From assembly GCF_051903065.1 (NCBI RefSeq), contig NZ_CP178438.1: DNA of 64,000 nucleotides, one strand, 5' to 3'. A program made the translations under genes and the position numbers. This DNA comes from Escherichia coli (GTDB taxonomy: Bacteria; Pseudomonadota; Gammaproteobacteria; Enterobacterales; Enterobacteriaceae). The notes below the pieces were generated by a model. The model had not been told where the DNA came from. It did no database searches and was given only the letters and a program-made list of their open reading frames with translations. Below, one piece after another: positions 37,117-38,105 of this stretch (positions within the stretch are counted from its first letter, which is position 1; each line of letters begins with the position of its first letter).

Positions 37117-37689
37117 ATGTTTTGCGAAGAAAAAGTAGCTCAAATGGCTGCATACCTACTTCTTAAGCGAGGTGGGCGCATGGCATATCTGAAATTGATG
37201 AAGTTGCTCTATCTGTCTAACCGCCAGTCGATTTTGAAGCATGGCAGGATGATCGGCGAAGATAGCCTTTACTCTATGAAATTTGGACCAGTCATGTCGA
37301 ATACGCTGAACTTGATTCGCGGTAAGGCTGAAGGCATTGGTGACTACTGGTACAACTTGATAGAGACGAACGGGCATAATGTATCGTTGCGTTCAGATCC
37401 GAGGGAAATGGATGCAGACGAGGTCTTTGATGAATTGAGTCGTGCAGATATCCGGATTTTAGATGAAATCTATTCTCGGTATGGGCATATGAACCGATTT
37501 GATCTCGCAAATATGACGCATTTAGAAAGCGTTTGTCCAGAGTGGCACGATCCTGGCAATTCTCGTAAGCCTATAGACCTGAAAGAAATGCTGATCAGTG
37601 AGGGTAAAAGCGAGGATGAGGCTAATCGCATAATTGGCAAAATGGAAGAATCTCAGAAACTTAAGGAATTTTCTTTGCAATTATCATGA
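37117..37689 (+). CDS. Panacea/DUF4065-like protein (SocA/GepA-like; putative antitoxin)
   Basis: 190-aa ORF; LKLMKLLYLSNRQ...SMKFGPVMSN segment resembles the DUF4065 core; stop overlaps next ORF start. Confidence 0.55.
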   Translation: MFCEEKVAQMAAYLLLKRGGRMAYLKLMKLLYLSNRQSILKHGRMIGEDSLYSMKFGPVMSNTLNLIRGKAEGIGDYWYNLIETNGHNVSLRSDPREMDADEVFDELSRADIRILDEIYSRYGHMNRFDLANMTHLESVCPEWHDPGNSRKPIDLKEMLISEGKSEDEANRIIGKMEESQKLKEFSLQLS

Positions 37690-38105
37690 CGGATTATCAG
37701 CCATACAGGAAAGGAACTGTGCTTGCCCCAACTGGGCCATGCAATCATCTTCATGTGATTTGTAATGATCCTGTTTATTACCCCGTTAACGATTGTTATT
37801 GTGTTTTAGTTGTTAATATTTCTAGTATCAAGGATGGTGTCCCCCACGATCCGTCTTGCGTCTTGAATTCTGGTGATCATCGCTTTATCAAGCATCCAAG
37901 TTATGTTGTTTACGCTGAAGCTATAATTTGGCGAGTGGATAACATGGTTAGAAAGCAGCGATCGGGTGAGATTTCTGTTCATGATGATATGCCAGAAGCT
38001 ACATTCAATAGAATTCTGGACGGTTTTGATATCTCTGATGAAGTTACGCCAAAGAACCTTAAATTTAAAAATAAATATTGCGTATCATCTATTGATGATG
38101 AGTAA
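37686..38105 (+). CDS. Hypothetical 139-aa protein translationally coupled to the Panacea-like gene (candidate toxin/effector)
   Basis: ATGA start/stop overlap at 37686-37689; no family recognised; Cys/His cluster CNHLHVICND...DCYC. Confidence 0.5.
   Translation: MTDYQPYRKGTVLAPTGPCNHLHVICNDPVYYPVNDCYCVLVVNISSIKDGVPHDPSCVLNSGDHRFIKHPSYVVYAEAIIWRVDNMVRKQRSGEISVHDDMPEATFNRILDGFDISDEVTPKNLKFKNKYCVSSIDDE

What the first reader, a model, noticed from the sequence alone, without database searches (positions are those of the whole stretch)
37117..38105. Translationally coupled Panacea(DUF4065)-like gene plus unrecognised 139-aa partner at the prophage left end: candidate new toxin-antitoxin or anti-phage module
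Seen in sequence: a 190-aa ORF (37117-37689) with a KLMKLLYLSN...MKFGPV core reminiscent of DUF4065/Panacea proteins; its stop overlaps the ATG of a 139-aa ORF (ATGA at 37686-37689) for which I recognise no family (Cys/His cluster CNHLHVICND...DCYC). The pair has its own upstream non-coding region (36882-37116) and a terminator (38338-38366), and sits between the dusA attL junction and the xis-like gene, a typical cargo/defence slot. Established knowledge: Panacea-domain proteins act as antitoxins for very diverse toxin domains. Inference: the partner is a toxin or effector of an undescribed type.
Basis: partly seen in the sequence, partly recalled or inferred. Interest (0 to 1): 0.85.

Follow-up and report, generated by a model that had tools for sequence, protein, structure and literature searches.

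The report
Prophage PanA–PanT toxin–antitoxin gene pair
This is a two-gene toxin–antitoxin cassette of an already described kind (a Panacea-domain antitoxin with a MazF-shaped toxin), carried as cargo at the end of an E. coli prophage; it is a real but fairly ordinary, untested member of a known family.

Summary
The 190-aa protein has a Panacea domain (Pfam PF13274, E 3.7e-19). Its stop overlaps the ATG of the 139-aa partner (ATGA), and homologues support that ATG over the later GTG that PGAP calls.

It belongs to toxin group "T6" of Kurata et al. 2022, shown through two genomes in their table:
- Chimaeribacter coloradensis: 57% identical.
- Pseudomonas reinekei: 36% identical, E 2e-29.

The Pseudomonas moraviensis T6 member was shown to be toxic, neutralised and bound by its PanA, and to inhibit translation.

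The gene follows a Panacea gene with a 1-4 nt overlap or a 2-nt gap wherever I could check, down to about 30% identity.

The cassette fills a variable cargo slot next to the dusA attachment site, and occurs in 204 of 5,426 complete E. coli genomes.

Toxicity, target and any anti-phage role are untested for this pair.

Verdict: a new member of a known kind, of modest interest. One open point is that the family's conserved His/Asp/Cys/His set differs from MazF's catalytic residues.

The parts
36753..36881 (+). 5' remnant of host dusA (first ~35 codons, then out-of-frame tail and stop). This is the attL-side junction of the prophage.
   Evidence: ORF translation MKMHGNSEMQKINQTSAMPEKTDVHWSGRFSVAPMLD.... 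PGAP annotates it as 'tRNA-dihydrouridine synthase, incomplete, missing C-terminus' in the identical CT29 locus. The intact dusA and integrase are at the far prophage end.
36882..37116 (+). Non-coding leader (phage attachment-site arm) upstream of panA. It contains one weak sigma-70-like site (36962-36990) and a GAGG Shine-Dalgarno at 37105-37108.
   Evidence: Sequence. In the promoter scan the number of sites does not exceed the shuffled expectation, and no + strand terminator lies between dusA' and panA. No Rfam family reaches its gathering score.
37117..37689 (+). panA: 190-aa standalone Panacea-domain antitoxin candidate. Panacea core is residues 27-137. A conserved C-terminal helical extension ends in ...LKEFSLQLS.
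   Evidence: Pfam PF13274 E 3.7e-19. PGAP names it 'Panacea domain-containing protein' WP_000458584.1. It is 46% identical to the PanAs of Chimaeribacter and Proteus and 42% to P. reinekei PanA. The C-terminal helix 166-190 is predicted with pLDDT 84-95 in the fusion model.
37686..38105 (+). panT: 139-aa toxin candidate with a MazF/Kid/CcdB-like fold, a member of PanT group T6. Its start overlaps the panA stop (ATGA).
38145..38318 (+). 57-aa ORF of unknown function. It belongs to the phage backbone rather than the cassette, but is probably co-transcribed with panAT because the terminator lies after it.
   Evidence: phrog_2741 full length, E 8.4e-36. It is present next to the excisionase in phage mEp460, which lacks panAT (gp24). 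It is absent after panT in Proteus, Chimaeribacter and the distant loci.
38337..38362 (.). GC-rich hairpin with A-run and T-run on either side. It is an intrinsic terminator usable from both directions, separating the + strand cargo genes from the convergent minus-strand xis/exo operon.
   Evidence: Terminator scan: 11-bp stem with 6 GC pairs, followed by a T tract. Sequence gaaaacccgcc-ttta-ggcgggttttt.
38366..38674 (-). PrtN-family excisionase-like gene, the first gene of the prophage backbone on the opposite strand. It is context, not part of the cassette.
   Evidence: PGAP 'pyocin activator PrtN family protein'. The mEp460 homologue is annotated as excisionase.

Best explanation
The two genes are a type II toxin-antitoxin module of the PanAT kind.

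**What each protein is.** PanT (139 aa) is a MazF-fold toxin of the group that Kurata et al. called T6. By analogy with the tested Pseudomonas moraviensis member, it most likely arrests growth by blocking translation, probably as an endoribonuclease. PanA (190 aa, a standalone Panacea domain plus a conserved C-terminal helix) most likely binds PanT directly and keeps it inactive.

**How they are made.** The ATGA overlap couples PanT translation to PanA translation. As a result the toxin is never made without the antitoxin.

**Where it sits.** The cassette is exchangeable cargo in the slot between the phage attachment site and a 57-aa ORF plus the excisionase gene of a dusA-integrating lambdoid prophage. 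It is transcribed towards the prophage interior, convergent with the phage early-left genes, and ends at a shared terminator.

**Likely benefit (inferred, not shown).** Either abortive-infection-type protection of the lysogen against other phages, with PanA acting as the trigger-sensitive element, or stabilisation of the prophage (addiction).

**Shown here:** domain identity, fold, family membership, conserved gene order, and the variable slot.

**Inferred:** toxicity, RNA target, direct binding, and physiological role.
For: **Identity of the two proteins**
- PanA matches Pfam PF13274 at E 3.7e-19.
- The PanT model has pLDDT 90.4.
- Foldseek against the PDB: the top 36 hits are all MazF, probability 1.0, TM-score 0.65 normalised to the target.

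**Membership of group T6**
- P0262 is 57% identical to PanT. It is encoded in GCA_002858715.1 directly after a 190-aa PF13274 gene with a 1-nt overlap. This is the genome, order and overlap listed in the T6 rows of dataset S1 of PMC8832971.
- P. reinekei PanT is 36% identical (E 2e-29) and its PanA is 42% identical (E 3e-41). Its 90% cluster holds the protein of strain BS3776, which is also a T6 row.
- Experimental precedent: the T6 member of P. moraviensis is toxic, neutralised by its PanA, pulled down with it, and specifically inhibits protein synthesis.

**Conserved gene order**
- A Panacea gene lies immediately upstream, with a 1-4 nt overlap or a 2-nt gap, in Proteus, Chimaeribacter, 4 of 4 informative distant members, 15 of 15 diverged IMG/VR loci, and Pseudomonas.

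**Complex formation (indirect)**
- A PanA-linker-PanT fusion modelled with 12 paired sequences gave pTM 0.83. The linker was disordered and the PanA C-terminal helix was confident.

**Variable slot**
- The same flanks hold a YafO-family toxin pair in phages PhiR40_1 and PhiR55_1, and other genes in phages 1720a-02 and mEp460.
Against: - Nothing about this particular pair has been tested. In Kurata et al., eight predicted PanTs were non-toxic in E. coli and five were not rescued by their PanA.
- Sequence-profile comparison with MazF is not significant (hhalign E 0.07-0.14, probability below 1%).
- None of 112 family members hits Pfam PemK.
- The residue aligned with MazF's catalytic Arg29 is an invariant Leu. 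The family's own invariant set (H21, D55, C58, H65) has no counterpart in MazF. The RNase mechanism is therefore an analogy, not a demonstration.
- The validated P. moraviensis protein itself was not retrieved. The link runs through other T6-listed genomes.
- The fusion-model pTM is only indirect evidence of binding, because no coordinates or PAE were available.
- No PADLOC model matches, and no paper in the searched library reports phage defence by a PanAT of this group.
- No promoter was identified.
Confidence: 0.78

Rival explanations
1. It is a PanAT toxin-antitoxin pair, but the toxin is not a MazF-type RNase. It uses the MazF/CcdB scaffold with a different active site (His21, Asp55, Cys58, His65). 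It would act on another target, for example as a CcdB-like gyrase poison, or as a metal- or Cys/His-dependent enzyme acting on tRNA, rRNA or a protein of the translation machinery.
For: - The family-wide invariant residues are H21 (112 of 112), D55, C58 and H65 (109 of 112 each).
- MazF's catalytic Arg29 aligns with an invariant Leu.
- Profile-profile similarity to MazF is insignificant.
- Zero of 112 members hit Pfam PemK.
Against: - The best fold matches are all MazF or Kid RNases, ranking above CcdB.
- The position aligned with MazF Thr52 keeps Ser or Thr in 96-110 of 112 members.
- The tested T6 member specifically inhibited translation rather than replication. This argues against a gyrase poison, but does not separate an RNase from other translation inhibitors.
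Confidence: 0.25
2. The pair is not a growth-arresting toxin-antitoxin system in E. coli. The two proteins would serve another prophage function, such as superinfection exclusion or regulation of excision, or be a decayed non-toxic remnant. The Panacea gene would simply be a conserved 'phage-associated protein'.
For: - Eight predicted PanTs, including a prophage-borne E. coli one of group T1, were non-toxic when tested.
- No promoter or operator-like palindrome stands out upstream.
- The module lies beside the excision genes.
Against: - Strict two-gene linkage with overlapping stop and start holds across Enterobacterales, Pseudomonas, Oceanospirillum-like and metagenomic lineages, in unrelated neighbourhoods.
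- The toxin is more conserved than the antitoxin (57-63% against 46%).
- A member of the same toxin group was validated as a toxin-antitoxin pair.
- The genes are intact in 204 complete genomes at 99-100% identity.
Confidence: 0.12
3. It works like the Caulobacter SocAB (type VI) system. PanA would not inhibit the toxin by binding alone, but would act as a proteolytic adaptor that delivers PanT to ClpXP for degradation.
For: - The Panacea domain was first characterised in SocA. NCBIfam's only hit for PanA is the SocA_antitoxin model.
Against: - That hit scores 14.4 bits against a curated cut-off of 190.
[quoted passage not shown] They showed stable PanA:PanT complexes, including for the T6 member.
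- The fusion model suggests a confident complex.
Confidence: 0.05

Closest known systems
PanAT toxin-antitoxin systems, toxin group T6 (Kurata et al. 2022, PNAS, PMC8832971); validated example Pseudomonas moraviensis PanA-PanT (WP_083354365.1 / WP_083201923.1)
   Same: - A standalone Panacea antitoxin gene comes first, and the toxin gene overlaps its stop.
- The toxin has no domain-database hit but a MazF-like predicted fold.
- Homology to T6-listed members is direct: 57% to Chimaeribacter and 36% to P. reinekei.
- The PanA N-terminus MFCEEKVAQ resembles P. moraviensis MIFSEQKVAQ.
   Different: - This copy is carried by a dusA-integrating E. coli prophage. The tested one was classed 'NotPhage'.
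- It shares only about a third of its residues with the Pseudomonas proteins.
- It is untested.
- It was not found in the part of dataset S1 held as text. That file was cut when stored, so its absence there proves nothing.
MazEF / Kid-Kis (PemIK) type II toxin-antitoxin systems, Pfam PF02452
   Same: - The alignment is collinear over about 100 residues.
- Ser/Thr is kept at the position of MazF Thr52.
- The expected outcome is translation arrest.
   Different: - No detectable sequence or profile similarity.
- MazF Arg29 is replaced by Leu.
- The invariant set is different (H21, D55, C58, H65).
- The antitoxin is a Panacea protein rather than an AbrB or RHH-type MazE/Kis.
- The toxin is about 25 residues longer, with an extra C-terminal helix.
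SocAB (type VI toxin-antitoxin system of Caulobacter crescentus)
   Same: The antitoxin carries the same Pfam domain (SocA_Panacea).
   Different: - PanA fails the NCBIfam SocA equivalog cut-off by a wide margin (14 against 190 bits).
- SocA acts as a ClpXP adaptor, whereas other PanAs bind their toxins.
YafO-family toxin pair in the same slot of phages PhiR40_1 and PhiR55_1
   Same: - It occupies the same position between the attachment site and the excisionase gene, with homologous flanks.
- It is a two-gene cassette of about 180 aa plus about 140 aa, in the same orientation.
   Different: - The proteins are unrelated: PanA against the 179-aa protein gives no similarity.
- The toxin belongs to the YafO family (NCBIfam E 4e-21, below the equivalog cut-off).

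Membership tests
PanAT (Panacea-antitoxin toxin-antitoxin systems) | The antitoxin carries the Panacea domain (Pfam PF13274 / DUF4065) | tested here: met
   hmmscan E 3.7e-19, residues 27-137 covering model positions 1-109 of 113.
PanAT (Panacea-antitoxin toxin-antitoxin systems) | Conserved two-gene arrangement (antitoxin then toxin, short overlap or gap) across unrelated genomes | tested here: met
   A Panacea gene lies immediately upstream in Proteus, Chimaeribacter, 4 of 4 informative distant members, 15 of 15 diverged IMG/VR loci, and two Pseudomonas genomes. One further locus was too short to judge.
PanAT (Panacea-antitoxin toxin-antitoxin systems) | The partner belongs to a described PanT homology group (T6) | tested here: met
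   T6 rows of dataset S1 list GCF_002858715.1 and P. reinekei BS3776. The proteins encoded there next to PanA are 57% identical and 36% identical, E 2e-29, to the partner.
PanAT (Panacea-antitoxin toxin-antitoxin systems) | The partner is toxic and the toxicity is neutralised by the cognate PanA | not testable with these tools
   This needs expression assays. It has been shown only for the P. moraviensis T6 pair.
PanAT (Panacea-antitoxin toxin-antitoxin systems) | Direct PanA:PanT complex (type II mechanism) | tested here: inconclusive
   The AF2 model of a linker fusion gave pTM 0.83 with a disordered linker, which suggests a confident complex. No coordinates or PAE were available and the paired alignment had only 12 rows.
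MazF/PemK endoribonuclease family (Pfam PF02452) | Sequence match to the family profile | tested here: not met
   No PF02452 hit for the protein or for any of 112 family members. hhalign against a MazF alignment gave E 0.14 and probability below 1%. No PDB sequence hit.
MazF/PemK endoribonuclease family (Pfam PF02452) | MazF/CcdB-type fold | tested here: met
   [not shown]
MazF/PemK endoribonuclease family (Pfam PF02452) | Catalytic Arg (E. coli MazF R29) and Thr (T52) | tested here: inconclusive
   In the statistically insignificant but collinear hhalign alignment, R29 aligns with invariant L22 and T52 with S46 (S or T in 96 of 112). No structural superposition of residues was possible.
MazF/PemK endoribonuclease family (Pfam PF02452) | Sequence-specific RNA cleavage | not testable with these tools
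   This needs biochemistry.
SocAB type VI toxin-antitoxin system | The antitoxin meets the NCBIfam SocA_antitoxin equivalog (NF047745) | tested here: not met
   14.4 bits against a curated cut-off of 190.
Catalogued anti-phage defence systems (PADLOC-DB v2) | Match to any defence-system protein model | tested here: not met
   No hits for PanA, PanT or the 57-aa ORF at E <= 1.

The most novel reading that the evidence does not exclude
The T6 PanT family, this E. coli prophage copy included, is not a MazF-type RNase. Instead it would be a mechanistically new toxin that re-uses the MazF/CcdB scaffold with its own invariant His21-Asp55-Cys58-His65 centre. The cassette would be an abortive-infection defence in which the Panacea antitoxin senses an incoming phage and releases the toxin. 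It may be expressed only in the lysogen, by read-through from the orphaned host dusA promoter just upstream.
Probability: 0.15. Interest if true: 0.6.

Novelty: new member of a known kind. Interest (0 to 1): 0.3.

Why it matters
The value is mainly in annotation.
- A gene that PGAP calls 'hypothetical protein', with a probably wrong start codon, can be named a PanT toxin candidate of the MazF-fold T6 group. It occurs in about 4% of complete E. coli genomes and in isolated phages (SKA5, Lys8385Vzw).
- The family is large (about 2,700 clusters at 50% identity). No Pfam, NCBIfam or PADLOC model matched the members scanned, so a profile for it would improve toxin-antitoxin and defence-island annotation.

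There are also two biological points.
- The slot between the dusA attachment site and the excisionase of these lambdoid phages swaps toxin-antitoxin cassettes (PanAT in some, a YafO-family pair in others). That makes it a convenient natural test-bed for asking whether such cargo protects lysogens from other phages.
- The conserved His/Asp/Cys/His set gives a concrete mutagenesis target for deciding how T6 toxins work.

None of this overturns current understanding.

Tried and rejected
- **PDB sequence searches.** Profiles of the partner family found nothing meaningful (best E about 0.4-0.6, unrelated proteins).
- **hhalign against MazF.** The family profile against E. coli MazF alone, and against a 24-sequence MazF alignment, was not significant. 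The E. coli MazF sequence was verified as identical to 3nfc_A.
- **Weak hits.** A DapC aminotransferase hit (NCBIfam, 17 bits against cut-offs above 500) and an ICMT hit (Pfam, E 0.075) were rejected as noise.
- **DNA-pattern scans for the P. moraviensis PanA N-terminus.** The first scan included ATG and found nothing. The close P. reinekei homologue starts with TTG, which may explain this. The second scan found three Pseudomonas species but not P. moraviensis, so identity to the validated protein itself was not measured.
- **IMG/VR scan.** It returned mostly identical copies, 64 of 80 at 99-100% identity, so the paired alignment for complex modelling stayed shallow.
- **Plasmids.** No match even at distant sensitivity.
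- **Rfam.** No family reaches its gathering score in or around the cassette; the sub-threshold hits are the terminator hairpin.
- **Operator search.** No convincing operator-like palindrome or repeat lies upstream of panA.
- **Literature.** Searches found no later work on this toxin group or on phage defence by it.
- **Accession look-up.** WP_000458584 and WP_014640052 were not found in the stored part of Kurata's dataset S1, which was cut when stored.
- **Fold search of the fusion model.** In the 50 matches listed it gave MazF chains only and nothing for the Panacea half.
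Full report

Yes. The ORF list and the sequence show a 190-aa ORF at 37117-37689 and a 139-aa ORF at 37686-38105 on the + strand. The TGA stop of the first overlaps the ATG of the second (ATGA).

The window is E. coli chromosome. The 1.8-kb region is 100% identical to strain CT29. It is present at 80% coverage or more in 204 of 5,426 complete genomes.

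In CT29, PGAP annotates the surrounding genes in this order:
- zur;
- a DUF2713 gene;
- a partial dusA (missing its C-terminus);
- 'Panacea domain-containing protein';
- two hypothetical proteins;
- on the other strand, a PrtN-family gene, an exonuclease and further lambdoid early genes.

The intact dusA and a tyrosine integrase lie about 41 kb further on. So the pair really sits at the dusA-remnant (attL) end of a prophage whose other end lies beyond the window.

PGAP starts the second gene at GTG 37719, giving 128 aa. However, residues 1-11 of the ATG-initiated product are conserved in homologues (M1, P6, G10).

Two details need correcting:
- The hairpin terminator (38337-38362) comes after a third, 57-aa ORF (38145-38318; phrog_2741, E 8e-36), not directly after the partner.
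- The region upstream of panA contains only one weak promoter-like site, and the number of such sites does not exceed the shuffled expectation.

**2. What are the two proteins?**

The 190-aa protein matches Pfam PF13274 (SocA_Panacea, formerly DUF4065) at E 3.7e-19 over residues 27-137. It does not meet the NCBIfam SocA equivalog (14 bits against a cut-off of 190).

The 139-aa partner has no credible hit in any library:
- Pfam;
- NCBIfam;
- PADLOC;
- PDB by sequence.

It matches only an unannotated phage family, phrog_19071.

It is nevertheless a member of a large family. There are 62 clusters at 90% identity among close relatives in Enterobacterales, Vibrio and Shewanella. A profile search finds 2,702 clusters at 50% identity at E <= 1e-3.

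An AlphaFold2 model built on 34 homologues is confident (mean pLDDT 90.4, pTM 0.84). The fold searches gave:
- Foldseek against the PDB: 36 MazF chains as the top 36 hits (best E 1.6e-3, probability 1.0, TM 0.65 normalised to the target).

So the partner has the MazF/Kid/CcdB toxin fold while being a sequence orphan. None of 112 diverse family members hits Pfam PemK. Profile-profile comparison with a MazF alignment is not significant, although it is collinear over 100 columns.

**3. It is a described toxin group.**

Kurata et al. 2022 (PMC8832971) surveyed genes next to Panacea genes and grouped the predicted toxins.

Their group T6 is a set of 'hypothetical proteins' in antitoxin-then-toxin order, most rows with overlaps of -1 or -4. 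It includes Proteus vulgaris, Pluralibacter, Pantoea septica, Photorhabdus, 'Yersiniaceae bacterium 2016Iso4', Pseudomonas reinekei BS3776 and Pseudomonas moraviensis.

The P. moraviensis pair was annotated by HHpred as EndoA/PemK/MazF-like. It was validated in four ways:
- toxic in E. coli;
- neutralised by its PanA;
- co-purified with it;
- a specific inhibitor of protein synthesis in metabolic labelling.

I linked the window's partner to this group at the sequence level through two T6-listed genomes.

*First link.* P0262 is 57% identical to the partner. It is encoded in GCA_002858715.1, directly after a 190-aa PF13274 gene with a 1-nt overlap. Taxid 2060068 from the T6 row is Chimaeribacter coloradensis, the organism named for P0262.

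*Second link.* A DNA-pattern scan used the PanA N-terminus that Kurata et al. quote for P. moraviensis (MIFSEQKVAQ; compare MFCEEKVAQ here). It found the pair in P. reinekei.
- Its toxin is 36% identical to the partner (E 2e-29).
- Its PanA is 42% identical to the window's PanA (E 3e-41).
- Its 90% cluster contains the protein of strain BS3776.

The P. moraviensis protein itself was not retrieved.

**4. Is the pairing conserved?**

Wherever enough DNA was available, a Panacea gene lies immediately upstream, with its stop overlapping the toxin start by 1-4 nt or lying 2 nt before it:
- Proteus, four contexts at a prophage tail-fibre end, beside Abi_2 or peptidase genes;
- Chimaeribacter;
- four of four informative distant members at about 30-40% identity, in unrelated neighbourhoods: next to integrases, a transposase, N6/N4 methyltransferase plus ResIII genes, or two-component genes;
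- 15 of 15 diverged IMG/VR loci;
- two Pseudomonas genomes.

One further locus was too short to judge.

The toxin is more conserved than the antitoxin (57-63% against 46% for the Chimaeribacter and Proteus pairs). This is what one expects of toxin-antitoxin pairs.

The PanAs of this group share a C-terminal extension beyond the Panacea core, ending in a conserved ...L(K/D)x(F/L)(S/F)xxL motif.

**5. How does it most likely work?**

By membership and analogy, PanT arrests growth by blocking translation, probably as an RNase. PanA holds it inactive by direct binding. The ATGA overlap ties toxin synthesis to antitoxin synthesis.

As an in-silico check on binding, I modelled PanA-(GGGGS)6-PanT with 12 paired sequences:
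- All five models had mean pLDDT 82-84.
- The best model had pTM 0.83 over 359 residues.
- The linker was disordered (pLDDT below 50).
- The PanA C-terminal helix (166-190) was confident.

A pTM that high is hard to obtain unless the two halves are confidently packed against each other. However, no coordinates or PAE were available, so this is indirect evidence.

The catalytic mechanism is the weakest link. Across 112 diverse members, conservation is as follows:

| Residue | Members conserved (of 112) |
|---|---|
| H21 | 112 |
| L22 | 109 |
| D55 | 109 |
| C58 | 109 |
| G63 | 106 |
| H65 | 109 |
| F67 | 106 |
| S72 | 106 |
| Y76 | 110 |
| G113 | 109 |
| S117 | 105 |

In the insignificant alignment with MazF, the catalytic R29 falls on L22. 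T52 falls on S46, where Ser or Thr is kept in 96 of 112 members.

The toxin may therefore use a different active site on the same scaffold.

**6. Genomic role.**

Related phages share the flanks but differ in what lies between the attachment site and the 57-aa ORF plus excisionase gene:
- PanAT in phages SKA5 and Lys8385Vzw;
- a 179-aa protein plus a YafO-family toxin in PhiR40_1 and PhiR55_1;
- a 182-aa hypothetical protein in 1720a-02;
- a 177-aa protein in mEp460, whose gene order is int, cargo, 57-aa ORF, xis, exo.

So the cassette is exchangeable cargo in a hotspot. Its G+C content of 39-44% is below the 47-52% of the neighbouring phage and host genes.

It is transcribed towards the prophage interior, convergent with the phage early-left genes, and ends at a shared hairpin terminator.

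The remnant of host dusA, with whatever promoter it has, lies just upstream in the same orientation, and no predicted terminator intervenes. Read-through expression in the lysogen is therefore possible, but this is inference only.

Whether the cassette defends against other phages or stabilises the prophage is untested. No PADLOC model matches. No paper in the searched library addresses this group beyond Kurata 2022 and Ernits 2023. The latter proposes that Panacea may act as a sensor.

**7. Verdict.**

It is wrong on the key novelty claim, because the partner belongs to a described toxin group with an experimentally validated member.

This is a new, untested, prophage-borne member of a known kind, and its interest is modest. 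What remains open:
- the unusual conserved His/Asp/Cys/His set of the toxin family;
- the absence of any model for this family in Pfam, NCBIfam and PADLOC;
- the unproven possibility of a defence role.

Noticed in passing
window 38145-38318 (+): A 57-aa ORF (MEDQKATKPQVKFDTMKAF...RRRKAA) lies between panT and the terminator. It matches phrog_2741 full length (E 8e-36) and has no known function. It belongs to the phage backbone, since it is present as gp24 in mEp460, which lacks panAT.
   Followed up: partly
window 37686 vs 37719: PGAP and RefSeq (WP_014640052.1) start the toxin gene at GTG 37719, which gives 128 aa and has a good AGGAAAGGA Shine-Dalgarno. Residues 1-11 from the overlapping ATG are conserved across homologues. 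Public databases hold both the 139-aa and the 128-aa versions, so this is probably a start-codon mis-annotation.
   Followed up: partly
L008 (phage PhiR40_1) 222-1212, same slot as window 37117-38105: In related phages the same slot, with homologous flanks, carries a different two-gene cassette. It consists of a 179-aa protein with no family match plus a 144-aa YafO-family toxin (NCBIfam E 4e-21, below the equivalog cut-off). The 179-aa putative antitoxin is unrelated to PanA.
   Followed up: partly
window 35373-36395 (+): This host-side gene between zur and dusA (PGAP: DUF2713 family) is very AT-rich (G+C 0.30-0.38). It begins with imperfect repeats of the type DKLDN(I/R)... . It matches a PHROG family strongly (phrog_29005, E 2.6e-145) although it lies outside the prophage.
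   Followed up: no
window 36753-37116: The orphaned 5' end of dusA points into panAT, and no predicted terminator lies between them. In the lysogen the cassette could therefore be transcribed from the host dusA promoter. This is inference only, and no promoter was mapped.
   Followed up: no
L002-L005 (Proteus/Providencia), L012, L014 (metagenomic): Homologous PanAT pairs sit beside other defence-like genes. In Proteus these are Abi_2, a peptidase S8 and an ABC/AAA ATPase at a prophage tail-fibre end. In two distant loci they are an N6/N4 methyltransferase, in one locus with a ResIII helicase, next to an integrase or HTH genes.
   Followed up: no
P0004 cluster and L083-L096: The Enterobacter, Klebsiella, Citrobacter and Cronobacter versions of the toxin (150 aa, 71-76% identical) carry an extra acidic C-terminal tail (...DQPEPTDGLTGT) that is absent from the E. 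coli copy. Its function is unknown.
   Followed up: no
window 8363-8559 (-); 10475-10546, 20147-20217, 24376-24446 (+); 10612-10761 (-): Rfam matches above gathering score elsewhere in the window: a lysine riboswitch, three naRNA4 (REP-derived) elements and STnc430. These are ordinary E. coli chromosomal features unrelated to the finding.
   Followed up: no
L017-L080 (IMG/VR): Many IMG/VR prophage predictions for this element begin exactly at the panA start or at the panT start. The automated prophage boundary calls therefore cut through or just before the cassette.
   Followed up: no
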